A program made the position numbers and the translations under genes. This document shows positions 1 to 15,141 of a stretch of DNA of 64,000 nucleotides, piece by piece. Under the pieces are notes generated by a model. The model was not told where the DNA came from. It was given only the letters and a program-made list of their open reading frames with translations, and did no database searches. Position 1 is the stretch's first letter. Each line of letters begins with the position of its first letter. The DNA is from Defluviitaleaceae bacterium (GTDB lineage Bacteria; Bacillota; Clostridia; Lachnospirales; WRAX01), in the NCBI GenBank assembly GCA_009785555.1, contig WQWB01000002.1, positions 2,926-66,925 of the forward strand. Reading direction: 5' to 3'.

Positions 1-207
1 TTTTGATTTTAATCCATCTATAAAATTGTCATCATTTTTTATGTAGCAAATTATAAAAGCCGCTTCGCAAATGTCAAATGCTTTTTTATAGACTTCATAT
101 ACATTTTCTTTCCCACACATAATCGCATATAATCTTGCGGAGGATAAAAAAAACTTCAGCTCTTTAATCGAATTCAAATATTCATTGCTTTGGCAAACAA
201 TACTCAT
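1..207 (-). CDS. Hypothetical protein, N-terminal part (runs off left edge); probable next gene of the LoaP operon
   Basis: Manual translation: ATG at 207, open frame MSIVCQSNEYLNSIKELKFFLSSARLYAIMCGKENVYEVYKKAFDICEAAFIICYIKNDDNFIDGLKSK to position 1; starts 21 nt after the carbamoyltransferase stop. Confidence 0.5.
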   Translation of the reverse strand, partial: MSIVCQSNEYLNSIKELKFFLSSARLYAIMCGKENVYEVYKKAFDICEAAFIICYIKNDDNFIDGLKSK

Positions 208-228
208 GACGAACCCCCATTCCGACGT

Positions 229-1938
229 CTAATTCTTATTTATTTTGTCAATAAAATAATCTTCTATGACAAGATAATGGATGCCGCTGTTCAAAAAACT
301 CTCGACCGCTTGCAAGGGGGTTTCCACAATGGGTTGACCTTTAATGTTGAATGATGTATTCAAAAGGATGGGAATCCCGGTTATTTTTTCAAAGGCTGAT
401 ATTAGTTCATAAAACACCTTGTTTTCGTCTCTTGAAACCGTTTGCAATCTGGCAGTTTGATCCACATGGGTAACGGCACCAAGCTTTTCCGCGTACTTTT
501 CTTTTACACTTGCAACATACAGCATAAAAGGATTGTCCTCAAAATCAGTATCAAAATACTCACTGACCTTTTCACGCAATACCGCCGGGGCAAAAGGCCG
601 GAACGGTTCGCGGAACTTGACAAGGTTATTTAATATATCCTTCATTTCGTTAGGCATCGGGTTGGCCAGTATGCTGCGGTGTCCTAATGCACGCGGCCCA
701 ATTTCCGAACCCTCGGTAAACCAGCCTATAATTTTGTTTTCCGCAAGCATTTTTGCCGTTTTTTCATACAACTGATCGGCCGGCATCTTACTCCACCTTA
801 AAACCCCGCTATATCTACTCAACGTCTGCTCTATCTCTACATTTGTATAGGCTCGACCAAGAAACGGATAAATAAAACGGCTGTTCATTTCATCTTTATT
901 GTTGTATTGATAATGTGCGTAAATAGCCGCACCATAAGCCAAGCCCGAATCTCCGGCAGCAGGGAAGATAAAAACGTCTTCAAACTTTGTCTTTTGTTTA
1001 ATTTTCCCGTTTAATACACTGTTCAATGCAACACCACCGCCGTAACTTAGACTCTTACAGCCCGTCTTTTCATATAAGTGATTTAATATACAAAAAACAA
1101 GCTCTTCTAAGATTACTTGACCTGTGCAAGCTATATCCGCCTTTGTTTTCAGAATATCAGAATAATATGCTTCTTTATTATTTTTAATAATATAAATCAA
1201 CTGATTATAAATTCCATTGATATCAATTTTGACAGCTATATCTTTTCCTTTTTCGCCAACTGTTATAAATTCTTTTATCCTGTCGTAGTAAATGGGCCTA
1301 CCGTAGGGTGCAAGCCCCATTGTTTTTCCTTCTTCAAGCAAATTGAATCCTATCATATATGTTATAAGGGAATAGAAATCGCCTATTGAGTTATCGGTAA
1401 GCGTTAGCCTGTCCATGCCGCTTTTATGCCTGAAATCATAAGGAAGATAGGCATATTTTTCATTTCTTGTACCCAAATAATCGGTATATAAATTTTCCTG
1501 CCCCCATATAGAATTAAAAATAGTGATTTTATTGTCTATTGCAAAGCCAAGCGAAATTGTGTTGGACTGTCCGTCCGAATAATGGTCTCCCGCACCATCC
1601 GCAACAAAAACTGCACTGTCTTTAAACCCAGAACCGTAATATGAAGCGGCGGCATGAGCCATATGGTGATTTACTCGCATAATATTAGCATAATATTCTC
1701 TATCCGCGAAAGCCGCCATACCCCATTGGTTGTTTGATACAATAATACCAATATCATCAATCGACAACCCGTTGGCATCTAAACAATACTGTATTCCCCC
1801 AAGTAAGGCCGACCTCAGCCCGCCACTGTGTTTTTCACGTGATACGCGTTCTTCCTCAATATATGTTATTATTTTTTTATCTTTTAGTAAACAATATGAA
1901 AAATCATGCTGTGAACCACCAATACCTAATATGTACAT
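229..1938 (-). CDS. Carbamoyltransferase, NodU/CmcH/TobZ family
   Basis: Motifs MYILGI..HD, EEERVSREKH, HHMAHAAASYY, DGAGD, EGKTMGLAPYG, GGVALN, GDSG, GPRALGHRSIL, KFREPFRPFAP, THVDQTARLQTV, LNTSFN. Confidence 0.95.
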   Translation of the reverse strand: MYILGIGGSQHDFSYCLLKDKKIITYIEEERVSREKHSGGLRSALLGGIQYCLDANGLSIDDIGIIVSNNQWGMAAFADREYYANIMRVNHHMAHAAASYYGSGFKDSAVFVADGAGDHYSDGQSNTISLGFAIDNKITIFNSIWGQENLYTDYLGTRNEKYAYLPYDFRHKSGMDRLTLTDNSIGDFYSLITYMIGFNLLEEGKTMGLAPYGRPIYYDRIKEFITVGEKGKDIAVKIDINGIYNQLIYIIKNNKEAYYSDILKTKADIACTGQVILEELVFCILNHLYEKTGCKSLSYGGGVALNSVLNGKIKQKTKFEDVFIFPAAGDSGLAYGAAIYAHYQYNNKDEMNSRFIYPFLGRAYTNVEIEQTLSRYSGVLRWSKMPADQLYEKTAKMLAENKIIGWFTEGSEIGPRALGHRSILANPMPNEMKDILNNLVKFREPFRPFAPAVLREKVSEYFDTDFEDNPFMLYVASVKEKYAEKLGAVTHVDQTARLQTVSRDENKVFYELISAFEKITGIPILLNTSFNIKGQPIVETPLQAVESFLNSGIHYLVIEDYFIDKINKN

Positions 1939-2189
1939 TAATAACCACCTTCTCTAAATTTAATTACATACTCAACCAGATCGTCTAAACCAAAATCATT
2001 GCCGAGAACCAAATATTCGTCATCAAAATAAATTCCATATTCTCTTTCAATTTCAACCAGTACTTTTAAGAATGCAATTGAATTAATCTGATACTGAACA
2101 AATGGCTCATCAAAATCTGTATCTTCGGGCATATCACCTGTATATATAAACTTGGAAATCATAAAATCTTTAAGTTCTTTATGTTGCAT
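1938..2189 (-). CDS. Acyl carrier protein (phosphopantetheine-binding)
   Basis: 83 aa, acidic, INSIAFLKVLVEIEREYGIYFDDE with a Ser at the start of helix II as in ACPs; stop overlaps next start. Confidence 0.8.
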   Translation of the reverse strand: MQHKELKDFMISKFIYTGDMPEDTDFDEPFVQYQINSIAFLKVLVEIEREYGIYFDDEYLVLGNDFGLDDLVEYVIKFREGGY

Positions 2190-2205
2190 AAAAGCTCCCT
2201 TTCCT

Positions 2206-3369
2206 TTAAGTTAGATTTTTTATAAGTACGCCGCTTCCTATCCCGCCGCCGCCACAAAGTACAGCCACTCCATAAGCAACCGAATTTCTTTTTAGATGAT
2301 GCAATAAAGTAATGCAAATACGCAGGCCAGTACTGCCCAGAGGGTGTCCCAGCGGTATACTTCCACCTCCAATATTGATAATTTCTGGATTCCACTTGCT
2401 TTGTTTCAAACATATGCACATTTGCGCAGCATACGCTTCATTGCATTCTATCAAATCTATGTCGTCTTCTTTGATTCCCGAAATATCCAATAATTTGTTA
2501 AACGCTTTGTGGGGTGCAAGACATATACTACCCGGGTCTACACCAATAACTACAGATGAGATTATCTCGGCTTCCGGCTGTATTCCATATTTTTCACATG
2601 CTCGTTCTGACATCAAAAGCACCGCACTTGCTCCGTCGTTTATGGACGTTGCATTTTTCTTTGTTATTGTGCCATCCTCACAAAACAACGGAACGTTCTT
2701 TTCAGAATCCAATAAATGTTTGTAAAACTGTATGTGTTCATCTTCATTAAAAATTGTATTGTCTGCAAGCCTAACAGGCTCTATCTCATCCTTAAACCAT
2801 CCATTTTTTTGTGCATATCTCGCTTTTTCATAGCTCTTCACAGAGTAATCATCCTGTTTATTTCTGCTGATGCCATACTCTCGTGCGGCTGTTTCTACAG
2901 CTAAGCCAATATTGTCTAAATAGCTCGCATCCCTTAAATCATTTAGCGTTTTTGTACTGTTTTTTATATTCATATAGGCATTTTTCAAAGAATACGGCGA
3001 CTGGCTCATGTTTTCTGTTCCACCAACCAAAATAACATCAGCAGCACCGATAATTATATTGCGGCTTGCAATTATTAAAGCTTCCATGGAGGATGCGCAA
3101 GTCCTGCCGATACATACCGCGGGTATATTTGCCGGTATGCCTGCTGATACCAATGCTTTTTTGGCATAGCTGTGCGGTTCTTGAGAAAAGCAACAACCTG
3201 CAACAAAATCATTTAGCTCTGCGCCTATCTTCCTGCCAGGTATATCTGCTTTATTTAGCAGCGCCCTCACTGCTTCCGCCAAAATATCTTTCTCAGCCAT
3301 ATTTGATAAAGACCCTGCCGGACTTCCTATAGGGGTCCGGCAGCATTTGGCCATATATACTTTTTGCAT
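2206..3369 (-). CDS. Thiolase (acetyl-CoA C-acyltransferase family)
   Basis: RTPIG, RTCASS (catalytic Cys), GGTENMS, NDGASAVLLMS, NEAYA, GHPLGSTG (His), LCGGGG (second Cys). Confidence 0.93.
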   Translation of the reverse strand: MQKVYMAKCCRTPIGSPAGSLSNMAEKDILAEAVRALLNKADIPGRKIGAELNDFVAGCCFSQEPHSYAKKALVSAGIPANIPAVCIGRTCASSMEALIIASRNIIIGAADVILVGGTENMSQSPYSLKNAYMNIKNSTKTLNDLRDASYLDNIGLAVETAAREYGISRNKQDDYSVKSYEKARYAQKNGWFKDEIEPVRLADNTIFNEDEHIQFYKHLLDSEKNVPLFCEDGTITKKNATSINDGASAVLLMSERACEKYGIQPEAEIISSVVIGVDPGSICLAPHKAFNKLLDISGIKEDDIDLIECNEAYAAQMCICLKQSKWNPEIINIGGGSIPLGHPLGSTGLRICITLLHHLKRNSVAYGVAVLCGGGGIGSGVLIKNLT

Positions 3370-3401
3370 TTAATACCACCTTGTACTTAAGAAATTACAC
3401 C

Positions 3402-4319
3402 CTACATTGCGTTTTCAATTATTTCAACAGCTTGAATCAAACATTTTTTTTCCTTCAACCAAACAGCATCAATCTTTTGGATTATTCTTTCCCTCATAAT
3501 TTTTGTTTCTCCCCAAAGTACGCATTTCAAAAAATTATTTTTTAGATTTTTCCATGCAGTTTCCAGCTCCCTCATCTCATTTGCAAACATTAAAAAAGTT
3601 TCTCCGCCAACATAATTTTCTATAAAACATGTATATAAATACCTGGAGCCGGAAATTATATAACCTACCATCGAATCTAAATCAGAGACCCATGCTCCGC
3701 CGCTTACATTTGAAGAATATTCCGCCGCAATCGATTCTGCCAAACTAACCTTTTCCTTAAATATTTCAAATTGCAAATCAACATTATATTGCAATATTTT
3801 ATTGTATGATAATATCAATGCATATAGCTTATCAGGTTTAACAAGGGTTTTAGGGGTATTCATATAGTGCATTTTTGTTATTTTCAAATTATTGGCGTAT
3901 ATTTTTTGAACTTTATCGCTATATGTCGGGTCAACCACGGTTGCAATATCATCTTTTATCGATTCAATCACAATAACATGATCATTTGTTATATTATATC
4001 TTGGAATCCATTCAAAATTATTGCAAGAAAGTTCAACCATTATAGGTCCTTGATTTTCTATCAATTTCTTAAGTCCGTCTATGCCACTATAATCTGCAGA
4101 TATAAATCGTATGCCAAATATCTTTGAAATTTCTTCTTCTATATTATCATGAAAAGCCCTTAGACAGCCTCCTATAGTATCTGCTCTTGCTTCATCATAA
4201 GCAAATGTAAAAAACGAATGAAAACACAGGGCATAATCAACCCTTTTTTTACTTAGTAAATACATCAAGCAAGCTCCTGTACAACCCAACCCTCTTAACG
4301 ATACCATTGTTCCCTCCAA
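3402..4319 (-). CDS. BtrH-like protein (papain/C39-like fold, putative ACP-dependent acyltransferase)
   Basis: N-terminal Cys (GLGCTGAC), PIMVELSCNNFEWIPRY...DHVIVI...VVDP pattern resembling BtrH_N proteins; co-operonic with an ACP. Confidence 0.55.
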   Translation of the reverse strand: MEGTMVSLRGLGCTGACLMYLLSKKRVDYALCFHSFFTFAYDEARADTIGGCLRAFHDNIEEEISKIFGIRFISADYSGIDGLKKLIENQGPIMVELSCNNFEWIPRYNITNDHVIVIESIKDDIATVVDPTYSDKVQKIYANNLKITKMHYMNTPKTLVKPDKLYALILSYNKILQYNVDLQFEIFKEKVSLAESIAAEYSSNVSGGAWVSDLDSMVGYIISGSRYLYTCFIENYVGGETFLMFANEMRELETAWKNLKNNFLKCVLWGETKIMRERIIQKIDAVWLKEKKCLIQAVEIIENAM

Positions 4320-4328
4320 AGCTATCTA

Positions 4329-5282
4329 TCATCTGTAGAATCTTTCCTTCATTTTTTTAACACTCAGATAATTTTCTATATAATCTTTAACCGCTTGGGA
4401 AATTTCGCTAAATTGCTTTTTATAACCAATGTCCTGTAATTTTTTTAGGTCTGCGCATGTATACACTTGATAACTTTCAGATACTTCTGGCGGTAATTGC
4501 GAAAAAGAAATTTCACATTCTTTATTTAATAAAGAACTTACCATTTCTACTATATTGAGAAACGGCGTGGTTACACCTGTACCAACATTATAAATGCCGT
4601 TAAATTGCTTGTTGCATATAAAATACCATATTACATCCAAAACGTCATTTATATAAATAAAATCTCTTCTTTGTAATCCTTTTTGGTACTGACCATTAAC
4701 ATCATAAAGAATTATTTTGCTATGCCGCGAAACAGATTGGTATACATGATAAATAAAACTAGCCATATTCTGCTTATGATATTCATTAGGCCCAAAGACA
4801 TTGAAAAGCCTTAATCCAACCCACTGAGGCGGAGTAGCCTTTGCAGTCAAAACATATCTGTCCAGCAAAACTTTTGAAAGCGCATATGGACTAGAAGGCT
4901 CTGTTTCGGCATCTTCCACGAAGTTTTGCAGAGAACCGTAAACCGAAGCTGAGCTTGCATATATAAACCTAACGCTATGTTTTCTGCACCATTCAAATAA
5001 TTCTGTACTGTACATATAATTGTTTTGGAAGATGCCGTCTACGTCCGTGTTTGTAGTAGAACTATATGCTCCAAGGTGTACAATCACACTGCCGGCAGGA
5101 GGTTTTATGGCTAATATTTTTGCTTTATCCATTATCATATTAAATTTTAAATTCAGTAAGTTCTTCCATTTTTCGCCTATTAGTCTGTCTTCAACAACAC
5201 AAATATCATTAATACCCATTTTGTTTAAAAATTTTACTAAGCAGCTTCCAATAAAACCTGCTCCACCTGTTATGAAATACAA
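4329..5282 (-). CDS. hldD: ADP-L-glycero-D-manno-heptose 6-epimerase
   Basis: ITGGAGFIGS, HLGAYSSTT, YASSASVYG, YALSK, GLRLFNVFGPNEYHKQNMAS, RDFIYINDV, GIYNVGTG; TTG start after GGAGGTGA RBS. Confidence 0.88.
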   Translation of the reverse strand: MYFITGGAGFIGSCLVKFLNKMGINDICVVEDRLIGEKWKNLLNLKFNMIMDKAKILAIKPPAGSVIVHLGAYSSTTNTDVDGIFQNNYMYSTELFEWCRKHSVRFIYASSASVYGSLQNFVEDAETEPSSPYALSKVLLDRYVLTAKATPPQWVGLRLFNVFGPNEYHKQNMASFIYHVYQSVSRHSKIILYDVNGQYQKGLQRRDFIYINDVLDVIWYFICNKQFNGIYNVGTGVTTPFLNIVEMVSSLLNKECEISFSQLPPEVSESYQVYTCADLKKLQDIGYKKQFSEISQAVKDYIENYLSVKKMKERFYR

Positions 5283-5346
5283 AAAATCACCTCCATGCCG
5301 AAAGCGGCAATAATTCTAAATTATTACTCCATAGAGTTTTATAAAG

Positions 5347-5388
5347 GCTTGCGCGATGCCTAGCTCTGCTTTGAAATAATTCCTCTAT
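5347..5388. repeat. Truncated, degenerate copy of the three-hairpin MITE-like element
   Basis: gcttgcgcgatgcctagctctgctttgaaataattcctctata resembles 53332-53362 joined to the element end attcctctata. Confidence 0.55.
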
Positions 5389-5399
5389 ATTAAATAAAC

Positions 5400-5924
5400 C
5401 TAATTTCTAATAATCTCGTCCGCTAAATCAGCAATCGTAAAAGCAGATCCAACTTGAAAAACTCTTTTAAATTTAATACTTAAACCTATATCAATATCGC
5501 TTTTTTTATCACCGATTAGATACGATGATAAAAAATCAATATTGTAGTCCTTGCCTGCCTTGTAAATCAATCCAGGTTTTGGTTTTCTGCAATCACAATC
5601 TATACTGTACGGCAGTACAGTACCTAACGGATAAGGAAGGTGCGGGCAGATATAAAAAGCGTCGATACTTGTGTTTTCCAGAGTTTTTAACCGGCAATTC
5701 AACGCGTCGTTAAACTGTTTCACGTCACTTAAAGTGCAGTAACCCCTAGCTACACCGGATTGATTTGTTACAACTATCAATAAAAAACCCGCGTCCTTTA
5801 ACTTTTTCAAGGCCTGCGGTACATTTTTTATAAACATTAAATCAGAAACATTCCATGTGTATCCCGTATCAATATTAATTGTGCCGTCCCGGTCGAGGAA
5901 AATAGCACTATTCTGTAATTTCAT
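5400..5924 (-). CDS. gmhB: D-glycero-D-manno-heptose 1,7-bisphosphate phosphatase (HAD IIIA)
   Basis: FLDRDGTIN, VVTNQSGVARG, CPH..CDCRKPKPG, IGDKKSDI. Confidence 0.92.
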   Translation of the reverse strand: MKLQNSAIFLDRDGTINIDTGYTWNVSDLMFIKNVPQALKKLKDAGFLLIVVTNQSGVARGYCTLSDVKQFNDALNCRLKTLENTSIDAFYICPHLPYPLGTVLPYSIDCDCRKPKPGLIYKAGKDYNIDFLSSYLIGDKKSDIDIGLSIKFKRVFQVGSAFTIADLADEIIRN

Positions 5925-6480
5925 TTTCCAGAGCCTCTATTAGAATGTGAAATAACGAAATCGTCATTTCTTGTATTACCTGCGTATTATCAGATGGTAT
6001 TTTAAGTATATTGTCAACTATTCCGCTTGCCTCCCCGTCTTTTGAACCTGTTATCAAATAATTCTGAATACCCAATGCTTGTGCAGTTTGTATGGCTATA
6101 ACAATATTTTTAGAATTTCCGCTGGTACTAAGAGCAATAAGCAAATCATTCTTACTTCCGTAAGCCTCAATCTGACGCCTGAAAACGTCATCGTAGGAAT
6201 AGTCATTGCTTAGGCATGTTAAAACAGAAATATCGCTGCACAATGCCAGTGCCGGCCATGCGCCCCTATCAACAGTCAAGCGCCCTACAAATTCGCTCGT
6301 TATATGAAGGCAATCTGCCGCACTACCTCCGTTACCGCACAAAAGCAACTTGCCTCCCAATGACAATGCAAACAATATAGAATGGTATAGATTCTGCACT
6401 TCTTTATGCATTGCCGCGTTACCCAGAATATTTGAATATACAGCACCTCGCGCGTCAAGCATTTCAATTATCTTCGCCAT
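5908..6480 (-). CDS. gmhA: Sedoheptulose-7-phosphate isomerase (SIS domain)
   Basis: CGNGGSAADCLHITSEFVGR, NDYSYDDVFRRQ, LSTSGNSKN, IQE. Confidence 0.92.
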   Translation of the reverse strand: MAKIIEMLDARGAVYSNILGNAAMHKEVQNLYHSILFALSLGGKLLLCGNGGSAADCLHITSEFVGRLTVDRGAWPALALCSDISVLTCLSNDYSYDDVFRRQIEAYGSKNDLLIALSTSGNSKNIVIAIQTAQALGIQNYLITGSKDGEASGIVDNILKIPSDNTQVIQEMTISLFHILIEALENEITE

Positions 6481-6586
6481 GCAAATACCCTTCTTTCGTA
6501 TTTTTTATACTACAAAAGTTCTAGTTAGAAACAAAGTTCTTAACTGCAAAAATTAAAAAATTACAATTGAAAATAAGATACCGTTC

Positions 6587-7579
6587 TTAGCCGAAATAGC
6601 TATAATAATCAATAATATCTGTTTTTGAAACTGTTGCAGTACCCATTTTTGATACACTTATACCTGCGACAAAAGACGCAAAGTTTCCTGCCTTGATAAC
6701 ATCTGTTCCAGAGGCGCAAGCAACAGCAAGAGCAGCCAAAGTTGTATCGCCTGCCCCGGTTACATCTGCAACAGCTTCACCAAAAGGCGGTATGATTTTT
6801 AAGCCTGTATCCTTTCCAAAAATGACACCACCATTTTTACCCGTCGTCACATATATGTAGTTAAAACTTCCTTCCTCCAAAACTGTTTTACATATATCTG
6901 ACAGCATTTCCAAATCATCAGCCGAAACATTATGCCCAGTAAATTCAGAAAGCTCTTTCAGGTTCGGCTTGATCATGTAAGCACCGGAATATTTGTAAAA
7001 ATCAGATTTAGGATCGACTATAATTTTCTTGCCTTTTCCGATAAATAAATCAATTATTTTTTCTATAAGCGAACGTTTACAGAATCCTTTTTTATAATCG
7101 GATACAACGAGCAAGTCATACAATTCTATATTTTTACTAATTAAATCAAAAACCTTTGTTTCTGCCATTTCGTCAATGACGCATATATATTCATTATCAA
7201 TCCTTAACAGAGGGTGACCGCTTGCAACCAGCCTTGTTTTTTTTGTGGTTGGCCTGTCATTGACTGTCAATAAATACTCACAGGGGTTATTTAAACTGTT
7301 TAACATGGCGGCTATATCCATGCCATCCTTGTCATTTCCGACTACACCGCACAAATGCGCATTTACTCCCAATGATTTTATGTTGTTGAAGACATTAGCT
7401 GCCCCGCCCAACCGAAATTCACATTCAACAGGTAAAAATACAGGAACTGGTGCTTCAGGCGACAATCTTTCAGCTTTGCCGAATATATATTTATCACAAA
7501 TGATATCACCTAAAACTAACATGGTGCAACTTTCTAGACTATCATCATATATATCCTCTATAAATACCATACTATCCAA
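6587..7579 (-). CDS. D-glycero-D-manno-heptose-7-phosphate kinase (HldE/RfaE domain I only, PfkB family)
   Basis: GDIICDKYIFGKAERLSPEAPVPV, GGAANV, RPTTKKTR, SDYKKG, VDPK, KPNLKE, DVTGAGDT; 330 aa with no nucleotidyltransferase domain. Confidence 0.9.
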   Translation of the reverse strand: MDSMVFIEDIYDDSLESCTMLVLGDIICDKYIFGKAERLSPEAPVPVFLPVECEFRLGGAANVFNNIKSLGVNAHLCGVVGNDKDGMDIAAMLNSLNNPCEYLLTVNDRPTTKKTRLVASGHPLLRIDNEYICVIDEMAETKVFDLISKNIELYDLLVVSDYKKGFCKRSLIEKIIDLFIGKGKKIIVDPKSDFYKYSGAYMIKPNLKELSEFTGHNVSADDLEMLSDICKTVLEEGSFNYIYVTTGKNGGVIFGKDTGLKIIPPFGEAVADVTGAGDTTLAALAVACASGTDVIKAGNFASFVAGISVSKMGTATVSKTDIIDYYSYFG

Positions 7580-7615
7580 TTATGCCCTTCATTGATTCAC
7601 ACTAAGTGTCTTATT

Positions 7616-8176
7616 TTAATGCCGATTTGGTACCTTACTGATAATCTCTAAGCCGACTTTCATTTCACATACCCGACCCATCATCCTGACCTCAACAACC
7701 GCCTCTGATTTATGCCGGTATATTTTTTTTATTTGACTTTCAAATCCTTTTAACGGACCTTTTGTTATCACCACTAAATCATTTTCAATAAATCCCTGCG
7801 ACATCTCAATACAATACTTATTATTGTATAACCTCATAAAACTTTTCCGTTCATCATTCATCATTTCAAAGCCAGAACAATTTTCGCTACCACATTCATT
7901 TCCATGTCTAAGCAGTTTAAACGTATTTTGTGACAGAAGGATAAACGGCTTTATGGTTAAATAGAAATCCTTTCCTTCGAATATCGTTTCAATGAAAACG
8001 TATCCGGGGAAAGTTTCCTTTTTTTCTAATTTCATCATGCCATTTTTTTTGAAATAAGTGTCATACATTGGTATAAACGGCTGTAAACCGTCAATCTTCC
8101 AAACTTGCGATATCTTGTAAGCAGTTTGCTGTTCATAACCCGTTTTCACGAATAATACATACAAGTGCATTTCCAT
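7616..8176 (-). CDS. loaP: LoaP-type transcription antiterminator (NusG paralog)
   Basis: YVLFVKTGYE, FIP, FPGYVFIE, S.GFIENDLVVITKGPLKGFESQIKKIYRHKSEA, KVGLEII; first gene of a long operon. Confidence 0.88.
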   Translation of the reverse strand: MEMHLYVLFVKTGYEQQTAYKISQVWKIDGLQPFIPMYDTYFKKNGMMKLEKKETFPGYVFIETIFEGKDFYLTIKPFILLSQNTFKLLRHGNECGSENCSGFEMMNDERKSFMRLYNNKYCIEMSQGFIENDLVVITKGPLKGFESQIKKIYRHKSEAVVEVRMMGRVCEMKVGLEIISKVPNRH

Positions 8177-8371
8177 TCCATCTCCTTATTTAAGGCGCAT
8201 GACTCAATTTGGCATAGCTTCGCCCTTCCCGTCTGCCTTTGGCTTTACAGCATACAGGTTAATGCGTCAAATATATAATCCTAGCCTAATCCGCCGCGAC
8301 CCTCCGACGTCCGGTTTTAAGCAAGTGTTTCAACTATACTTTATACTTTTTTACTAAAAAATAAAACCATC
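8177..8371 (-). promoter_or_regulatory. Long 5' leader of loaP with a GC-rich structured core (candidate cis-acting antitermination RNA)
   Basis: ~190 nt between the predicted TSS and loaP; GC-rich core in AT-rich surroundings with mini-hairpins GCCAAAGGC and GGCGAAGCT. Confidence 0.5.
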
Positions 8372-8377
8372 TTTAGT

Positions 8378-8406
8378 ATTTTATTAATATACACTATGGT
8401 TGTCAA
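8378..8406 (-). promoter_or_regulatory. Sigma-A promoter of the loaP operon
   Basis: Minus strand TTGACA-17 nt-TAAAAT. Confidence 0.8.
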
Positions 8407-8465
8407 TAAAAGCAAGTTACAAAGTGTTTTAATTTCATACTTATTTATGATATGATTTTTACGAG

Positions 8466-8807
8466 GTGAGGAAATTGAATAAAAAAAAGATAGAATTTAA
8501 TGAATTTGATATTGCAGTTGGCAGCCGGATTCGAAGCCAACGTGAGAAACTTGGATATTCAAGAGAAAAACTTGCTGAGTTTGCAGATATGAGTATTAAT
8601 TATCTTGGAGAAGTTGAAAGAGGCGTCAGAAAAATATCGGCATATAAGCTGGCTCGCCTATCTGTAGCTCTTGGCGTTACAACCGATTATCTTTTATTTT
8701 CTGTAAGGCATGGTGAAAAATATGAACCATCGATAAACTTTTTACGTGTTGAGTTTGAAAGTATTATTGAAAAATTTATTAAAGTAGTTGGATTTGAAGA
8801 ACATTAA
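8466..8807 (+). CDS. XRE-family HTH transcriptional regulator, divergent from loaP
   Basis: GSRIRSQREKLGYSREKLAE..SINYLGEVERG..LGVTTDYLLF. Confidence 0.88.
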   Translation: MRKLNKKKIEFNEFDIAVGSRIRSQREKLGYSREKLAEFADMSINYLGEVERGVRKISAYKLARLSVALGVTTDYLLFSVRHGEKYEPSINFLRVEFESIIEKFIKVVGFEEH

Positions 8808-8965
8808 TAGAAACACTCAAATTTGAACTTATATCCTTAATTGTATTTATCATTATTACACTGCTTTTTAATCTGTGAAATACAGTACAACTAATATCTT
8901 ACCACTGTTAAACAACTAATATTATAATAACTCAAAGTGCTGATGATACCATGCAAAAATAACAT

Positions 8966-9689
8966 GTGCTGTTAAGCAAAATAGACCGTAAGAAACTCAA
9001 GATGATATTGCTATTAAATAAGTGTTTTCTATGGAAGAAAAGACACAAGCGCAGATACTTCAAGATTCGGACAAAACAGGCGAACGGAGACCGGATCGCA
9101 GACAACATAAGACCATTACAAGCCAAACTCATGAATCAACTCTCCGGAGATGCTCATACTTTTTAATCTGCATAATGCTTTCCTCTGCAGATCCATAACT
9201 CAAGAGGTTTATGCTGCCGTACCAAAAACGAGACGCTGGACATTTGGCTTGTAACAAAATTTAAGCTATTATGATACAATAAAGTTATGGATAAATATAA
9301 CAACATTAAGAAATACAATGCGACAACTTTCAAATCTATGACAGAAATATCGCCTTCAACATTTGAAGAAATAATAGGGGTCACCAAAACAACCTATGCT
9401 AACAAACACAAGCTACCTTTCTATGTTTGATATTTTTTGTGCTTGGAACAAACAAGCGATTAAACTCAAAAACGGCGAAATAACCAAGGATGAATATAAT
9501 AATTGGCGATACAACCACCCCAAAACCGAGGTTAAATATAGCAAAGCTACACTTTTCAATGGACTAAATAATGACCATATAACCTCCAAAACTTTTAATG
9601 AAATTTACATCATAGTTCCTACACCTGGAAAAAGATGTCAATATACACCACATCAGGAACTATTCCAGAGCAAGTCCAATTACCGATAA
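8966..9689 (+). pseudogene. Degraded remnant of a mobile-element-type XRE repressor gene
   Basis: Fragmented frames; 9396..9689 retains WNKQAIKLKNGEITKDEYNNWRYNHP, resembling the C-terminus of XRE proteins on Firmicute integrative elements. Confidence 0.4.
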
Positions 9690-9732
9690 TAATTAACTGG
9701 AAACATCCTCAATTTACTTGTTTGTAGTCAAT

Positions 9733-9773
9733 AAAAAAGAGCTAACCGGCGTTCAAAAGCAGTTAGCTCTTTT
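9733..9773. terminator. Bidirectional intrinsic terminator
   Basis: aaaaaagagctaac...gttagctctttt inverted repeat with A/T tracts on both sides. Confidence 0.7.
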
Positions 9774-9869
9774 CATATGGATTTATAAGCAATGTTGCCA
9801 AATTGATGCCACGACGGTTATCGACAGGCTACAAACTCTGTAAAATCAACATTCTTTACGCAGGTTTTC

Positions 9870-10886
9870 TTACTCCCATTCAATAGTCCCTGGCGGCTTG
9901 GACGTGATATCGTACACGACACGCCCAACGGCCGGTACCTCGGTAATTATCCGCGCTGATATCCGCGCCAAAACGTCGTGAGGGATAGGGGTGTATGTGC
10001 CGGCCATAAAATCCTTCGTATATATGGCGCGCAGGGCGATTACCGCGCCGTAGCGCCGCTCTCCTTCCGCGGACACGCCGACGGACGATAGGCCGGTATG
10101 CACGGCAAAATACTGATCAGGACGCGTAACCAGCGCAAGCACGGAGTGCTGACCAGATACTGGTATCTGCTCAAGCTTTTCTACTTCCCCACGGAAAATT
10201 GCATCAGCTTGGCGTAAAACGCATAGCTTGTCCTCCGTAACCTCGCCCAATACGCGCACGGCAAGGCCGGGGCCGGGGAACGGCTGGCGTGCGTAAAGAT
10301 GCCTGGGCAGACCAAGGACTTTGCCAACCTCACGTATCTCCTCTTTAAGAAGGCCCGCAAGCGGTTCTACCAAACCAGTGAAGCCGATATCCTCCGGCAG
10401 ACCGCCCACGTTATGGTGGGATTTTACGAAGGCCGCGCCTTCCTTGCCCGATTCTACAATATCGGCGTAGTTTGTACCTTGCGCTAGAAAGATTACGTCC
10501 TTTAGCTTCGCGGCTTCCTCGTTAAAAACAGCTACAAACTCCGCACCGATGATTTTGCGCTTTTCCTCCGGGTCTGAAACGCCCGCCAGCTTCGCCAGAA
10601 AGCGCGCGCCAGCGTCCACGCGGATAAAGGTTAGGTCTTTACCTGCGAAGGCCGCCTCGATCTCGTCGCTTTCGTTAAGGCGCATGAGGCCGTGGTCCAC
10701 ATACACGCTAACTAGCTGACCGGGGATGGCCTTTGTAAGAAGCGCCGCACAGACGGACGAGTCCACCCCGCCGGACAGGCCAAGCAAAACGCGTTCTTCC
10801 CCCACTTGCTCACGGATTTTTTTGCATTGAAGTTCTATAAAAGCTTCGACGGTGCTTTCGGTTTTCGCTAAACGGTCTTTTATCAT
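9870..10886 (-). CDS. guaA: GMP synthase, ATP-pyrophosphatase/synthetase part only (no glutaminase domain)
   Basis: LSGGVDSSV PP-loop, KSHHNVGGLP, PFPGPGLAVR, YDITSKPPGTIEWE; start placed at ATG 10886 behind GAGGAG. Confidence 0.88.
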   Translation of the reverse strand: MIKDRLAKTESTVEAFIELQCKKIREQVGEERVLLGLSGGVDSSVCAALLTKAIPGQLVSVYVDHGLMRLNESDEIEAAFAGKDLTFIRVDAGARFLAKLAGVSDPEEKRKIIGAEFVAVFNEEAAKLKDVIFLAQGTNYADIVESGKEGAAFVKSHHNVGGLPEDIGFTGLVEPLAGLLKEEIREVGKVLGLPRHLYARQPFPGPGLAVRVLGEVTEDKLCVLRQADAIFRGEVEKLEQIPVSGQHSVLALVTRPDQYFAVHTGLSSVGVSAEGERRYGAVIALRAIYTKDFMAGTYTPIPHDVLARISARIITEVPAVGRVVYDITSKPPGTIEWE

Positions 10887-10932
10887 TTGAATGCTCCTCA
10901 CACTGCAATATTTATACTCTTTGTTTGAATTT

Positions 10933-11679
10933 TTATACCACGCCAACATAACTTTCCGTATAATTTAACACTGCCAAATACCCTCCGACAGCGTATTTAT
11001 TAAAATATCCTGTCAGCTCCGATATATATGTGCCATAATTTTCATCATTTTCCTTAAGGGCGTACGATGCAGAAAGAGACCGGCCAATAAATCCGTCTAA
11101 ATCAAAGACAAGGTCGTTTTTAAATATTTTGTGTTCGTATGCGCCTATAAAGAAACCATTAAAATCGCTCTCTCTTCCAATTCCGCCGCCGAAACCCTTA
11201 AAGTTAGGACAATATTTTTTATTAATTCTATCACATTCTATTACCGATATATCGCTATAATCGCGGATGTTCCATACGAGGACCACTTTGCCGCCCGGTT
11301 TTATGATACGCCCGCATTCCGCCTTAAATTTTATCTGATCAAACCAATGGTATGCCTGAGCAACAGTGATGAAATCGACACTTACCGCCGCAAGTGCCGT
11401 GGCCTCGGCCGTGCCGTTTATGGAGATGAAGTTTTTATAGGAACTTAATTCTTTTTCCGCAACGGTTCTCATATCACCGTTTGGCTCAACGGCAAGGACT
11501 TTACTGCCGATATTTAATAGCTGCCTCGTAAAAATGCCCGTGCCGGAACCCACATCAGCGACAGTGACAGCATCGTTTACACCGACGGATGTACGCAAGT
11601 ATTCAATAAACCCCGCGGCGTACGTCGGCCGGTACTTTGCATATATACCGCCCATGCCTTCAAACTTCGCTTCGTTCAT
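10933..11679 (-). CDS. Class I SAM-dependent methyltransferase
   Basis: YAKYRPTY, VADVGSGTG, AVEPN, VAQAYHWFD, KPGG. Confidence 0.9.
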   Translation of the reverse strand: MNEAKFEGMGGIYAKYRPTYAAGFIEYLRTSVGVNDAVTVADVGSGTGIFTRQLLNIGSKVLAVEPNGDMRTVAEKELSSYKNFISINGTAEATALAAVSVDFITVAQAYHWFDQIKFKAECGRIIKPGGKVVLVWNIRDYSDISVIECDRINKKYCPNFKGFGGGIGRESDFNGFFIGAYEHKIFKNDLVFDLDGFIGRSLSASYALKENDENYGTYISELTGYFNKYAVGGYLAVLNYTESYVGVV

Positions 11680-11681
11680 AT

Positions 11682-12845
11682 TTATCTAACCTCCTGCCGT
11701 AAATTGTATTGTAGTTTAAGCAACTCCCAATATCCCGGCACAAGGTCAATTCTCAGATCATCAAACAGAAAGCATTGTTGCGGGCAGCCGCAGTACTCAA
11801 CTCCATCAAACTTCCATTTGAATGAATGAGTACAGTTGCCGCCGCCTTTAACCTTATTACAGCACCCGGGGTGGTCTTTCTTAAATTCGTTCCGCACGGT
11901 ATCAGGCATCGCTAAAATGCCGCTCATGGATTTATCAACTTTTGGTAATTTTAAGGAAAGCCTGCCGTACAGCGTCCTCGCGATCCGGGCCGATTTATAA
12001 AAATACTCACCCGCCGCATTGGCTATATTGAATTTTATATCAGGATAACATGTGGAATAATCGTAAAACGTTATGGCGAAATCACGCATTTGCCGTGATT
12101 GTTCCGTTTGGTGAATATTATCAACAACCCATTGCCTAAGCGGGATTTTTGCGCGGTCGGCAGTGATTTTATAATCAAAATGAAACCATGCTTGCCAACC
12201 TTCAAACGGGCTATTTTCGCTCTTTGCGGAACTTGATTTTATTTTACGGACGGCTAAACGTGCGGCAATTTCCGAAAACCAAAGTGTGTCCCAGCATTCA
12301 AAATACAGTTTCATCGTATTCATCATAACCGGATCATCTGGATATTCTACGTCAAAGGTTTCAATATTTTTACTGAAAGGTTTACCGTTAAAATTAGAAA
12401 AGACAAAGCCAAACTCAGTTAGGCGTAATAGGACTTTTTCATACTTGGGAACAGGGCGTTGTATTTCAGCTTCCTCACGGTTACGTCCTTTAATTTGTTT
12501 AAGGAAGTCTTGGACGGGAACGGTCAGGGTATTATTATGTAAATGCGCCGACTTAAAGAGCGCAAACAACGTATCCACCGCACGGCTGACCGTACGGTTA
12601 CCTGCTTTAATAACGTCGCTATCAATTTCTTCGACAGGTACGAGCTTACAGCCGTATCCTTCCGGATTTTTTGCAATATCGCGGTATATGCTTTTGGCAA
12701 GCTCACAAAACTGCGTAAACTTTTTCGAGAAATCAATAGGCAAGCCGCTTGCAAGCGGGTAATCCTCCGGTATTGGAAGGATTGTATTTGCGATTCTTTC
12801 CGCATGTTGTTGGCAATAATATTTGTATCGGCAAGTATATTCCAT
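11682..12845 (-). CDS. Hypothetical protein with Cys-rich C-terminal domain
   Basis: 387-aa ORF packed between co-directional genes; CCNK..GGNC..YCGCPQQC. Confidence 0.7.
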   Translation of the reverse strand: MEYTCRYKYYCQQHAERIANTILPIPEDYPLASGLPIDFSKKFTQFCELAKSIYRDIAKNPEGYGCKLVPVEEIDSDVIKAGNRTVSRAVDTLFALFKSAHLHNNTLTVPVQDFLKQIKGRNREEAEIQRPVPKYEKVLLRLTEFGFVFSNFNGKPFSKNIETFDVEYPDDPVMMNTMKLYFECWDTLWFSEIAARLAVRKIKSSSAKSENSPFEGWQAWFHFDYKITADRAKIPLRQWVVDNIHQTEQSRQMRDFAITFYDYSTCYPDIKFNIANAAGEYFYKSARIARTLYGRLSLKLPKVDKSMSGILAMPDTVRNEFKKDHPGCCNKVKGGGNCTHSFKWKFDGVEYCGCPQQCFLFDDLRIDLVPGYWELLKLQYNLRQEVR

Positions 12846-13661: not shown

Positions 13662-13695
13662 TCATACCTCTATGTGATGTCTTATATTATAATGT

Positions 13696-13842
13696 TATAG
13701 AGGAATTACTTTGAAGTAGTGTCAAAATTTAGCTTGTTAAGATTTTGATACTACTTCAAAGTAAAGCTGGGCAACACGCAAGTGTCCCAGCTTGTTCGTA
13801 GAATAGTTACGTATGTAACTATTCTACGAACATTCCTCTATA
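13696..13842. mobile_element. MITE-like element (~147 bp), complete copy
   Basis: Inverted ends TATAGAGGAAT / ATTCCTCTATA; three internal hairpins (13707-13763, 13764-13793, 13793-13832); related copies at 53272, 43677, 5347. Confidence 0.75.
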
Positions 13843-13846
13843 TGTC

Positions 13847-15103: not shown

Positions 15104-15141
15104 TCTCCTTTCATGCAGCCGTCAAATACAGTTTGCTTTTG

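What the first reader, a model, noticed from the sequence alone, without database searches (positions are those of the whole stretch)
1..8176. LoaP-controlled operon joining ADP-heptose genes to acylation and carbamoylation genes: candidate undescribed heptose natural-product or glycan pathway
Seen: one co-directional run of loaP, heptose kinase, gmhA, gmhB, hldD, BtrH-like gene, thiolase, ACP, carbamoyltransferase and a further ORF. Established: GmhA/HldE/GmhB/HldD make ADP-L-glycero-D-manno-heptose, normally for the LPS core. The same logic is reused in Streptomyces septacidin-type antibiotics. LoaP typically heads antibiotic and polysaccharide operons in Firmicutes. TobZ/NodU enzymes O-carbamoylate sugars and other metabolites. 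Inference: this clostridial host (no LPS genes in view) may make an acylated, carbamoylated heptose-derived compound. I know no characterised cluster with this combination. ADP-heptose is also an ALPK1 agonist, so host signalling is a further possibility.
Basis: partly seen in the sequence, partly recalled or inferred. Interest (0 to 1): 0.88.

Follow-up and report, generated by a model that had tools for sequence, protein, structure and literature searches.

The report
Orphan LoaP-headed heptose biosynthetic operon
A low-GC island in a termite-gut Firmicute carries an intact but truncated operon that joins heptose-sugar genes to carrier-protein acylation and carbamoylation genes, a combination found nowhere else that was searched, so its product is still unknown.

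Summary
A tight minus-strand operon (window 8176 to 1) encodes LoaP, a heptose-7-P kinase, GmhA, GmhB, HldD, a BtrH/CtaG-type papain-like transacylase, a thiolase, an ACP and a TobZ/NodU-type carbamoyltransferase.

It continues left of the window with a GT9-like protein, a class-III aminotransferase and a second BtrH-like gene. It is then cut by the contig end.

The stretch is a low-GC island (0.34-0.39 against 0.463 for the genome). It lies beside the 3' end of guaA in an 84%-complete Firmicute genome with no LPS markers.

No HldD homologue was found in 398 other genomes of the host's class. The two signature proteins have no close relative in 5.8 billion proteins. No related cluster was found anywhere searched.

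The gaps are serious:
- The heptose adenylyltransferase is missing.
- The operon is truncated.
- No RNA data exist.
- The island-to-host join is not bridged by an independent assembly.

My best reading is an acquired pathway for a carbamoylated, (amino)acylated heptoside, probably a small molecule (about 0.45). A surface-glycan decoration is the main rival. The ALPK1 idea has no support.

The parts
8378..8406 (-). Promoter-like site (TTGACA, 17 nt, TAAAAT) about 200 nt upstream of loaP
   Evidence: 11 of 12 consensus positions. The total number of promoter-like sites in the region does not exceed the shuffles, so this is a consensus match only. The leader fold is unremarkable (z -0.07). No UNCG-tetraloop hairpin with a stem of 3 or more pairs was found.
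8466..8807 (+). Divergent XRE-type HTH regulator (113 aa) inside the low-GC island
   Evidence: PF01381, E 3e-12. PHROG transcriptional-regulator families also match. Its role in the operon is inferred from position only.
7616..8176 (-). loaP, a specialised NusG paralogue (186 aa) and first gene of the operon
   Evidence: NF033641 antiterm_LoaP scores 141.3 bits against a cut-off of 125. NusG NGN and KOW domains are present.
6587..7579 (-). [quoted passage not shown] It is the kinase only, with no adenylyltransferase domain.
   Evidence: TIGR02198, E 1.3e-87, 293.9 bits (below the cut-off of 345). It matches HldE model positions 7-308 of 475 only. Relatives in 4 of 6 loci examined have a 497-504-aa bifunctional HldE with an HxGH motif.
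5908..6480 (-). gmhA, sedoheptulose-7-phosphate isomerase (190 aa)
   Evidence: TIGR00441, E 5.4e-50 (169 bits, below the cut-off of 209). SIS domains are present.
5400..5924 (-). gmhB, heptose 1,7-bisphosphate 7-phosphatase (174 aa)
   Evidence: TIGR00213 scores 151.7 bits against a cut-off of 149.6.
4329..5282 (-). hldD, ADP-glyceromanno-heptose 6-epimerase (317 aa)
   Evidence: TIGR02197 scores 315.6 bits against a cut-off of 274.6. It is 37-44% identical to HldD homologues of LPS-making members of the phylum.
3402..4307 (-). BtrH/CtaG-type papain-like, carrier-protein-dependent transacylase. It is P0001, 305 aa if read from TTG 4319. The likely true start is ATG 4307, just downstream of a GGAGGG ribosome-binding site.
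   Evidence: The family has 18 hits in 1.84 billion representatives. Of 15 aligned members, 7 hit BtrH_N and 4 hit DUF4872. The AF2 model has pLDDT 87.9. Its best PDB matches are CtaG (E 1.5e-8, TM 0.60-0.67) and AziU2/U3. Cys13, His114 and Asp130 are conserved in 14/15, 10/15 and 15/15 rows. The start codon was read.
2206..3369 (-). Thiolase (387 aa)
   Evidence: TIGR01930 scores 334.8 bits, above 240.55. The nearest solved relatives are biosynthetic acetoacetyl-CoA thiolases. The Cys, His and Cys motifs were seen by eye in the sequence printed.
1938..2189 (-). Free-standing acyl carrier protein (83 aa)
   Evidence: PF00550 scores 24.2 bits, above 20.8. A Ser lies in the motif INSIAF (by eye).
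229..1938 (-). NodU/CmcH/TobZ-family carbamoyltransferase (569 aa)
   Evidence: PF16861 scores 228 bits and PF02543 scores 140 bits. The nearest solved relatives are 7xb6, the novobiocin carbamoyltransferase, GdmN and TobZ.
1..207 (-). First 69 codons of a 487-aa GT9-like glycosyltransferase (P0002). The rest lies left of the window at G000:C2:1669-2925. Two further genes follow it outside the window: a class-III aminotransferase (446 aa, G000:C2:322-1662) and a second BtrH-like gene (at least 108 aa, G000:C2:2-325) that is cut by the contig end.
   Evidence: ORFs were listed. P0002 hits PF01075 only at E 0.14. The Atlas model (pTM 0.62) aligns residues 115-468 to GT9 clusters at TM 0.52-0.59. 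The aminotransferase hits PF00202 at 149 bits. The second BtrH-like gene matches profile A1 by hhalign at 89.7% probability.

Best explanation
I read this as a horizontally acquired, LoaP-headed biosynthetic operon of at least 12 genes that is cut by the contig end. I infer that it builds a decorated heptoside.

Proposed steps:
1. [quoted passage not shown]
2. An adenylyltransferase that is not in view makes ADP-D,D-heptose, and HldD epimerises it to ADP-L,D-heptose.
3. The divergent GT9-like protein transfers the heptose to an acceptor that is not LPS.
4. In a parallel thiotemplated branch, the thiolase makes a short beta-ketoacyl unit that is carried on the ACP.
5. The GSA-type class-III aminotransferase converts a keto or aldehyde group to an amine. 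This could be on that acyl unit, as the MycA aminotransferase domain does on beta-ketoacyl-ACP, or on the sugar.
6. The two BtrH/CtaG-type Cys-His-Asp transacylases move carrier-bound acyl groups onto amines.
7. The TobZ/NodU-type enzyme O-carbamoylates a hydroxyl.
8. LoaP keeps RNA polymerase reading through the operon.

I take the product to be a diffusible small molecule built on aminoglycoside-, butirosin- or streptothricin-like logic.

What is shown: the gene content, intact catalytic motifs, the foreign base composition and the rarity. What is inferred: every chemical step, the acceptor and the product class.
For: -
- The operon is tight, with gaps of -17 to 117 nt.
- The P0001 fold and triad match CtaG. 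CtaG's triad is Cys11, His128 and Asp144 (passages of PMC12865890). P0001 has Cys13, His114 and Asp130, with the same 16-residue spacing between His and Asp.
- That paper describes BtrH, AsbE, MllDE and CtaG as carrier-protein-dependent transacylases of natural-product pathways.
- The two contexts of family relatives that I could inspect, G425 and G187, are thiotemplate secondary-metabolite loci.
- The nearest solved relatives of the carbamoyltransferase are natural-product O-carbamoyltransferases.
- The aminotransferase is related to the MycA aminotransferase domain at E 1.2e-29, and more closely to GSA aminomutases.
- LoaP genes sit beside secondary-metabolite or polysaccharide operons (passages of PMC12691694).
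- No flippase, polymerase, initiating phosphoglycosyltransferase or transporter is among the 12 genes scanned.
- The host lacks LPS markers.
- HldD homologues were found in 0 of 398 other genomes of its class.
- Island GC is 0.34-0.39 against 0.463 +/- 0.032 for the genome.
Against: - No heptose adenylyltransferase is in the operon or in the 83.7%-complete genome, so nucleotide activation is unproven.
- The GT9 assignment rests on a mid-confidence Atlas model. Pfam gives only E 0.14. My own single-sequence model was useless (pLDDT 41).
- No resistance gene, exporter or acceptor-forming genes are in view.
- The operon is truncated.
- No related cluster exists to show that selection acts on this gene combination.
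- The UNCG hairpin that B. velezensis LoaP needs was not found upstream.
- Surface-polysaccharide loci can also carry carbamoyltransferases. WapO, a putative enzyme, is credited with the carbamoyl group on a heptose of the Pseudomonas core (passages of PMC8005017). From my own recall, they can also carry ACPs (the Vibrio cholerae O1 tetronate genes).
- The join between the island and the host chromosome is not bridged by an independent contig.
Confidence: 0.45

Rival explanations
1. The operon decorates a cell-surface glycoconjugate rather than making a diffusible metabolite. The target could be an S-layer or other glycoprotein, a secondary cell-wall polymer or a capsule. The GT9-like enzyme would heptosylate a polymer or a protein, as the autotransporter heptosyltransferases do (that comparison is recalled). 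The carbamoyl and N-acyl groups would then be surface decorations. The island could be the cargo of an integrative element.
For: - LoaP genes are also found next to polysaccharide operons (PMC12691694 passage).
- A carbamoyl group on heptose is a known LPS-core decoration, credited to the putative carbamoyltransferase WapO (PMC8005017 passages).
- The nearest feature-space neighbours of P0002 are phage proteins, some of them GT9-like.
- The island sits directly after the 3' end of guaA, next to an XRE-type regulator.
- No exporter or resistance gene is in view.
Against: - No flippase, polymerase, chain-length or initiating transferase is among the 12 genes.
- The characterised BtrH/CtaG-type transacylases named all act in small-molecule pathways.
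- The two relatives' contexts that I inspected are thiotemplate loci.
- There are no PHROG hits for P0001, P0002 or the small ORFs.
- No integrase is seen on the visible flank.
Confidence: 0.3
2. The heptose cassette does not make ADP-heptose. The pathway would stop at heptose-1-phosphate or the bisphosphate, or it would use another nucleotide or an unrecognised activating domain such as the Rossmann-like N-terminal 165 residues of P0002. The HldD homologue would then act on a different substrate.
For: - No TIGR02199 match was found in the genome.
- The kinase is monofunctional.
- P0002 has an extra N-terminal alpha/beta domain with no family.
Against: - HldD scores above the equivalog cut-off for the ADP-heptose 6-epimerase.
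- The genome is only 83.7% complete and the operon is cut, so the gene may simply be unassembled.
- The N-terminal domain shows no HxGH motif (by eye), and its structural neighbours are weak (TM about 0.5).
Confidence: 0.15
3. The gene combination, or its assignment to this host, is an assembly artefact or a decaying relic. In that case no single organism makes the inferred product.
For: - This is a metagenome-assembled genome (3.6% contamination).
- The independent contigs stop at C2:12714 and resume at 12845, exactly at the boundary between island and host.
- The two runs that hold the stretch may both be the source.
Against: - One 8,256-base independent contig covers everything from the island's boundary next to guaA, through loaP, to the 5' part of the carbamoyltransferase gene.
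- The only internal break falls inside that gene, which reads through as a full-length ORF.
- Word depth is about 8-9 on both sides of the unbridged gap.
- All 11 complete ORFs are intact with their family motifs.
Confidence: 0.07

Closest known systems
Septacidin (sep) pathway of Streptomyces
   Same: [quoted passage not shown] The heptose is later aminated and N-acylated (Introduction and passages of PMC9978623).
   Different: - In sep the heptose is transferred to N6 of AMP.
- sep uses an FAD 4'-oxidase, a TIM-barrel epimerase, a VOC epimerase and a DesI-like aminotransferase.
- None of the 12 ORFs here has such a domain.
- Here there is instead a GT9-like protein, a class-III aminotransferase, a thiolase, an ACP, BtrH-like enzymes and a carbamoyltransferase.
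- No sep protein sequences were compared directly.
BtrH (butirosin) and CtaG (closthioamide) papain-like, carrier-protein-dependent transacylases
   Same: [quoted passage not shown]
- A Cys-His-Asp triad.
- A neighbouring free-standing carrier protein.

   Different: - P0001 itself has no Pfam hit.
- Foldseek aligns P0001 to CtaG at only 13-15% identity.
- The donor and acceptor are unknown.
- The pathway context, heptose plus carbamoyl, is not that of butirosin or closthioamide.
TobZ, NovN and GdmN natural-product O-carbamoyltransferases; WapO of the Pseudomonas LPS core
   Same: The two-domain carbamoyltransferase architecture is the same. WapO is the putative enzyme credited with the carbamoyl group on a core heptose (passages of PMC8005017).
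   Different: - The best solved relatives align only from residue 176 onward.
- The NodU equivalog model scores 160 bits against a cut-off of 1000.
- The substrate is unknown.
- The host makes no LPS.
LoaP-controlled dfn and mln polyketide operons of Bacillus velezensis
   Same: A LoaP-family NusG paralogue is encoded at a long biosynthetic operon.
   Different: - No UNCG-tetraloop hairpin was found in the leader.
- No convincing leader terminator was found.
- The cargo is sugar and acyl chemistry, not a polyketide synthase.
LPS inner-core ADP-heptose cassette (GmhA, HldE or HldA+HldC, GmhB, HldD with WaaC/WaaF GT9 heptosyltransferases)
   Same: Four of the five pathway enzymes and a GT9-like fold are present. 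Homologous cassettes occur in the LPS-making members of the same phylum.
   Different: - No adenylyltransferase was found.
- lpxA, lpxC, waaA and bamA were not found in the host.
- The GT9-like protein is below the Pfam threshold and carries an extra N-terminal domain.

Membership tests
LoaP (specialised NusG paralogue) | Scores above the curated LoaP model cut-off and has NGN plus KOW domains | tested here: met
   NF033641 scores 141.3 bits against 125. PF02357 and PF00467 are both present.
LoaP (specialised NusG paralogue) | Encoded next to a long biosynthetic operon | tested here: met
   It is the first gene of a co-directional run of at least 12 genes. The association is described in PMC12691694.
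LoaP (specialised NusG paralogue) | A UNCG-tetraloop recruitment hairpin plus an intrinsic terminator in the target leader, as in dfn and mln | tested here: not met
   No T-N-C-G loop with a stem of 3 or more pairs was found in the 294 nt upstream of loaP. The leader fold has z -0.07. Terminator-like sites do not exceed the shuffles. The element is defined only for B. velezensis, so this weakens the case but does not exclude it.
[quoted passage not shown] | GmhA isomerase, heptose-7-P kinase and GmhB phosphatase | tested here: met
   The best hits are TIGR00441, TIGR02198 and TIGR00213. Only GmhB is above its curated cut-off. GmhA and the kinase are clear best hits (E 5e-50 and 1e-87) but fall below theirs.
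[quoted passage not shown] | Heptose-1-P adenylyltransferase (HldC, or HldE domain II) | tested here: not met
   TIGR02199 gives 0 matches in the own genome, which is 83.7% complete. The kinase covers only the first 308 of 475 HldE model positions. The operon is cut by the contig end, so absence is not shown.
[quoted passage not shown] | HldD 6-epimerase | tested here: met
   TIGR02197 scores 315.6 bits against 274.6.
BtrH/CtaG papain-like carrier-protein-dependent transacylases | The two-part fold: a papain-like N-domain and a helical C-domain | tested here: met
   The model has pLDDT 87.9. Foldseek matches CtaG at E 1.5e-8 with TM 0.60-0.67, and AziU2/U3 at TM 0.69-0.70.
BtrH/CtaG papain-like carrier-protein-dependent transacylases | A Cys-His-Asp catalytic triad | tested here: met
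   Cys13, His114 and Asp130 are present. The columns are conserved in 14/15, 10/15 (Arg in 5) and 15/15 rows. The His-Asp spacing of 16 equals that of CtaG His128 and Asp144. Spatial proximity in the model was not measured.
BtrH/CtaG papain-like carrier-protein-dependent transacylases | A Pfam BtrH_N or DUF4872 match | tested here: inconclusive
   P0001 itself has 0 families at E<=1. Of 15 aligned relatives, 7 hit BtrH_N (best 5.6e-8) and 4 hit DUF4872.
BtrH/CtaG papain-like carrier-protein-dependent transacylases | Acyl transfer from a carrier-protein thioester to an amine | not testable with these tools
   An ACP gene lies two genes downstream. The activity itself needs an assay.
GT9 heptosyltransferases | A sequence match to PF01075 | tested here: not met
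   E 0.14, 11.9 bits against a cut-off of 22. The own-genome search gave E 0.046.
GT9 heptosyltransferases | A GT-B fold like GT9 members | tested here: inconclusive
   The Atlas model (pTM 0.62, pLDDT 0.57) aligns to GT9 clusters at TM 0.52-0.59 by query, and three rows meet the naming bar. My own AF2 model was too poor to use (pLDDT 41).
NodU/CmcH/TobZ carbamoyltransferases | Both carbamoyltransferase domains above the Pfam cut-offs | tested here: met
   PF02543 scores 140 bits and PF16861 scores 228 bits. PDB relatives are TobZ, GdmN and NovN. It is not NodU itself (160 against 1000 bits).
Septacidin-type cluster | The heptosamine-forming set: an FAD 4'-oxidase, C5 and C3 epimerases and a DesI-like aminotransferase | tested here: not met
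   None of the 12 ORFs carries such a domain. The set is defined in PMC9978623. The region beyond the contig end is unknown.
Standard capsule or S-layer glycan locus | An initiating phosphoglycosyltransferase, a flippase/polymerase or ABC exporter, and chain-length control | tested here: not met
   None is among the 12 ORFs or on the visible flank. The region beyond the contig end is unknown.

The most novel reading that the evidence does not exclude
This is the first heptose-based natural-product pathway of an anaerobic, monoderm Firmicute. A new sequence family of GT9-like transferase would place ADP-heptose on a non-LPS acceptor. CtaG/BtrH-type papain-like ligases would then attach a beta-aminoacyl unit, made on an ACP by a thiolase and a GSA-type aminotransferase, to give a carbamoylated, aminoacylated heptoside. 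That chemistry has no described counterpart.
Probability: 0.3. Interest if true: 0.75.

Novelty: new variant of a known kind. Interest (0 to 1): 0.5.

Why it matters
- If the operon is functional, it would extend heptose natural-product chemistry beyond actinomycetes, where septacidin and hygromycin B are made, to an uncultured gut anaerobe.
- It would add new substrates for the recently defined CtaG/BtrH class of carrier-protein-dependent ligases.
- It would give a GT9-like enzyme with a non-LPS acceptor.
- It is a compact operon of at least 12 genes with its own antiterminator, so it suits synthesis and heterologous expression.
- As it stands it is a truncated singleton from a metagenome-assembled genome with no expression data. 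Its present value is as a lead, not a result.

Tried and rejected
**Searches for relatives**
- Looking for the same cluster elsewhere failed at every level.
  - P0002 was absent from 40 relatives.
  - P0001 and P0002 found only themselves among 5.8 billion proteins.
  - The carbamoyltransferase, P0002 and P0005 gave no confirmed locus in genome contigs, metagenome contigs or viral contigs. These scans find only close relatives.
  - tblastn of P0002 against 50,697 phage records gave no match.
- The search for related loci with alignment A1 could not run because the alignment has no conserved stretch.

**Structure and missing parts**
- The single-sequence AF2 model of P0002 was unusable (pLDDT 41).
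- The N-terminal 170 residues of P0002 gave only weak Rossmann-like neighbours.
- I looked for the missing end of the operon on low-GC contig ends and found no candidate.

**RNA and regulation**
- An Rfam scan of window 1-16000 found nothing relevant. The four weak hits are miRNA/sRNA models on hairpins and repeats.
- The intergenic gaps inside the operon show no significant structure.
- The terminator-like site at 5306-5288 overlaps the hldD ribosome-binding site, so I rejected it.

**Expression, prediction and other tools**
- No RNA holder is listed for the stretch.
- Phage origin: there are no PHROG hits for P0001, P0002 or the small ORFs.
- Complex prediction was not used. An enzyme paired with its carrier protein is a poor case for it.
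- The Goodson 2017 LoaP paper is not held.
- Supplements of papers were not opened. The CtaG-homologue tables of PMC12865890 may list related proteins.
- The identity of PDB 4zm3/4zm4 could not be confirmed. I cite only the depositors' name, 'Aminotransferase'.

**Rows dropped**
- Of the 18 hits, I aligned 14 and left out 4: P0004 (the protein itself), P0007 (2353 aa, multi-domain), P0016 (64 aa) and P0019 (262 aa).
- Of the 21 genomes with a hit (G000 among them), I examined only the 11 other genomes with E <= 1.7e-51.
- lpxC was tested in 5 of those 11.

Full report
**1. What is there**

Gaps between them range from -17 to 117 nt.

Family scans give the following.

| Gene | Window coordinates | Best model and score |
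|---|---|---|
| LoaP | 7616-8176 | NF033641, 141.3 bits against a cut-off of 125 |
| Heptose-7-P kinase | 6587-7579 | TIGR02198, E 1.3e-87, below its cut-off |
| GmhA | 5908-6480 | TIGR00441, E 5.4e-50, below its cut-off |
| GmhB | 5400-5924 | TIGR00213, above its cut-off |
| HldD | 4329-5282 | TIGR02197, 315.6 against 274.6 |
| Unassigned 305-aa protein (P0001) | 3402-4319 | no family hit |
| Thiolase | 2206-3369 | TIGR01930, above its cut-off |
| ACP (83 aa) | 1938-2189 | PF00550 |
| Carbamoyltransferase (569 aa) | 229-1938 | PF02543 plus PF16861 |

The kinase matches only positions 7-308 of the 475-position HldE model, so it is the kinase half alone.

The window is G000:C2:2926-66925, so 2,925 bases lie to its left. 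The 'further ORF' at 1-207 is the start of a 487-aa protein (P0002). It is followed by a 446-aa class-III aminotransferase (PF00202; the best NCBIfam hits are GntE-like and HemL-like, both below cut-off). After that comes an ORF of at least 108 aa (P0003) that runs off the contig end. The operon therefore has at least 12 genes and is truncated.

**2. The unassigned proteins**

*P0001.* It finds only itself among 5.8 billion clustered proteins. A full HMMER scan of 1.84 billion representatives gives 18 hits at E <= 1e-3. The best hit other than the protein itself has E 1e-19 and 28% identity.

I aligned P0001 with 14 of those hits. I dropped the protein itself, a 2353-aa protein and two fragments. 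Of the 15 rows, 7 hit Pfam BtrH_N, 4 hit DUF4872 and 3 hit Peptidase_C39.

The AlphaFold model built on this alignment is confident (pLDDT 87.9, pTM 0.86). Its best PDB matches are CtaG of closthioamide biosynthesis (E 1.5e-8, TM 0.60-0.67) and AziU2/U3. C39 peptidase domains and cathepsins follow.

Passages of PMC12865890 describe CtaG as a papain-like ligase with the triad Cys11, His128 and Asp144. It moves acyl groups between carrier proteins. The same passages name BtrH, AsbE and MllDE as structural homologues with the same triad.

P0001 has Cys13, His114 and Asp130. These columns are conserved in 14/15, 10/15 (Arg in the other 5) and 15/15 rows. The His-Asp spacing is 16 residues, as in CtaG.

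The likely start codon is ATG 4307, just downstream of a GGAGGG ribosome-binding site. The 287-aa form on record (P0004) begins after the catalytic Cys.

*P0003.* It matches the N-terminal part of the same profile (hhalign 89.7%, E 1.8e-6), so it is a second paralogue.

*P0002.* It has no sequence relatives. Its only Pfam hit is a sub-threshold one to GT9 (E 0.14).

The Atlas's own model (pTM 0.62) aligns residues 115-468 to GT9 clusters at TM 0.52-0.59. Residues 166-480 align to phage proteins of about 320 aa at TM up to 0.79 by target. I therefore call it GT9-like with moderate confidence. Its N-terminal 165 residues are an extra alpha/beta domain with no family.

**3. Setting**

- C2:1-12000 has GC 0.34-0.39. 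The genome has 0.463 +/- 0.032 in 2-kb windows, and 2.7% of those windows fall below 0.39.
- The island ends just after the stop codon of guaA. Housekeeping genes follow it: guaA, a methyltransferase, uppP and an HtrA-like protease.
- Between guaA and loaP lie three small ORFs without family hits and a divergent XRE-type regulator.
- The genome is 83.7% complete with 3.6% contamination.
- It lacks lpxC, lpxA, BamA and the Kdo transferase domain.
- It has a fragment of the Spo0A-specific C-terminal domain. It is therefore a Firmicute, most probably monoderm. I could not name it further.
- The stretch is held by two termite-gut metagenome runs, and both may be its source.
- Contigs made by another assembler from those runs cover C2:1-4475 and 4459-12714 and resume at 12845.
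  - The whole run from loaP to the 5' part of the carbamoyltransferase gene lies on one contig.
  - The internal break falls inside that gene, which still reads as a full-length ORF.
  - The 130 bases that join the island to guaA are not bridged. Depth is about 8-9 on both sides.

**4. Is the combination found elsewhere?**

No.

*Heptose genes.*
- In a sample of 400 genomes of the phylum, 11 have HldD homologues of 37-44% identity.
- Within 10 kb of each, tblastn with all 12 cluster proteins finds only the kinase, gmhA, gmhB and hldD.
- Four of six loci examined have a bifunctional HldE of about 500 aa with an HxGH motif.
- Five of five tested genomes have lpxC, so those cassettes serve LPS.
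- In the host's own class, 0 of 398 other scored genomes have an HldD homologue at E <= 1e-30.

*Carbamoyltransferase genes.* Nine other genomes of the phylum sample have homologues (29-39% identity by tblastn). None lies next to any other cluster gene, apart from generic SDR epimerases.

*BtrH-like genes.*
- The BtrH-like profile hits three other genomes of the 400.
- I inspected the Pfam context of two of them. G425 has a radical-SAM, ACP, PPTase and ABC transporter locus. G187 has an A-Ox-PCP protein, an acyltransferase, an FkbH-like HAD, acyl-CoA and hydroxyacyl-CoA dehydrogenases and an ACP. Both are thiotemplate secondary-metabolite loci without heptose genes.
- For the third, G225, I ran only tblastn with the cluster proteins, and it found none of them.

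*Literature.*
- The terms LoaP and heptose together gave 0 papers.
- Heptose, carbamoyltransferase, thiolase and acyl carrier protein gave 21 papers holding 3 or more of the terms. None of the 20 listed concerns such a cluster, judged by title.

**5. What is missing**

- The adenylyltransferase that makes ADP-heptose, which is HldD's substrate, is not in the operon. It was also not found in the genome.
- The operon is cut and the genome is incomplete, so this is a gap rather than a demonstrated absence.
- No exporter, resistance gene or acceptor-forming enzymes are in view.
- No RNA data exist for the stretch.
- LoaP's known recruitment element, a UNCG-tetraloop hairpin followed by a NusA-dependent terminator (passages of PMC12691694), was not found in the leader.

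**6. Mechanism (inferred)**

1. The heptose cassette supplies an activated L,D-heptose.
2. The GT9-like protein transfers it to an acceptor that is not LPS.
3. The thiolase has its Cys, His and Cys motifs (by eye). Its nearest solved relatives are biosynthetic acetoacetyl-CoA thiolases. Together with the ACP it supplies a short beta-ketoacyl unit.
4. The GSA-type aminotransferase aminates that unit or a sugar carbonyl. Its nearest solved relatives are 4zm3/4zm4 and GSA aminomutases. The MycA aminotransferase domain, which acts on beta-ketoacyl-ACP, matches at E 1.2e-29.
5. The two papain-like transacylases move carrier-bound acyl groups onto amines.
6. The carbamoyltransferase O-carbamoylates a hydroxyl. 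Its nearest solved relatives are 7xb6, the novobiocin enzyme, GdmN and TobZ.
7. LoaP secures read-through of the operon.

I put about 0.45 on a diffusible small molecule. The reasons are as follows:
- The characterised BtrH/CtaG-type enzymes named act in small-molecule pathways.
- Both inspected relatives sit in thiotemplate loci.
- No polymer-assembly genes are present.

I put about 0.3 on a surface-glycan or glycoprotein decoration, for these reasons:
- LoaP genes also head polysaccharide operons.
- A carbamoyl group on heptose is a known LPS-core decoration, credited to the putative enzyme WapO.
- The neighbours of P0002 in feature space are phage proteins.
- No exporter is in view.

**7. 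Comparison and verdict**

The closest known systems each share one module.
- Septacidin shares the ADP-L,D-heptose supply in a Gram-positive organism.
- Butirosin and closthioamide share the carrier protein plus papain-like transacylase.
- TobZ, NovN, GdmN and WapO share carbamoylation.
- dfn and mln share LoaP.

No described system that I could find joins these modules, and no homologous cluster exists in the data searched.

This is best filed as a new variant of a known kind, a sugar-based tailoring and biosynthetic operon. It is a singleton, it is truncated, and it lacks one pathway step.

The test it asked for, conserved co-occurrence, came out negative, because nothing related exists to compare with. 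The ALPK1 suggestion has no support.

Interest is 0.5. It is a good lead for synthesis and expression, but not yet a finding that changes a field.

Noticed in passing
window 15142-15262; also 33147, 39176, 39252: A 30-bp unit holding a 17-base palindrome is repeated four times in tandem, and single copies lie elsewhere in the window. The palindrome occurs 14 times on 7 contigs of the genome with at most one mismatch, and there are no copies in the island. It looks like a REP-type dispersed element. In the metagenome contigs it coincides with high depth and many loose ends.
   Followed up: partly
window 9789-9920: The low-GC island abuts the 3' end of guaA, which is followed by a terminator-like hairpin. 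The independent contigs break exactly here. From recall, the 3' end of guaA is an integration site for some Firmicute integrative elements. No integrase is on the visible side.
   Followed up: partly
window 9870-10949: The guaA ORF is only 359 aa. It has the ATP-pyrophosphatase and C-terminal domains but no glutamine-amidotransferase domain hit. The GATase part may be a separate gene or may lie upstream of the chosen start.
   Followed up: no
window 3402-4319: The form of P0001 on record is 287 aa (P0004). It starts at an internal Met after the conserved catalytic Cys. The family alignment and a GGAGGG ribosome-binding site point to ATG 4307 as the start.
   Followed up: yes
window 13702-13833: Long hairpins between uppP and the HtrA-like gene give sub-threshold hits to plant and animal miRNA models. 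These are almost certainly chance matches to terminator-like hairpins.
   Followed up: no
L011 (G425:C6:28000-47999) and L049 (G187:C10:83500-103499): Distant BtrH-like genes in two other genomes of the phylum sit in thiotemplate loci. One locus has a B12-radical-SAM enzyme, an ACP, a PPTase and ABC transporters. The other has an A-Ox-PCP protein and a methoxymalonyl-ACP-like gene set. They could be further uncharacterised CtaG-type ligase pathways.
   Followed up: partly
L038, L040-L045 (loci): Seven of the 11 heptose loci examined, all in LPS-making members of the phylum, carry two hldA-like kinase copies a few kb apart. In the two of these checked, the copy next to hldD lacks the adenylyltransferase half.
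   Followed up: no
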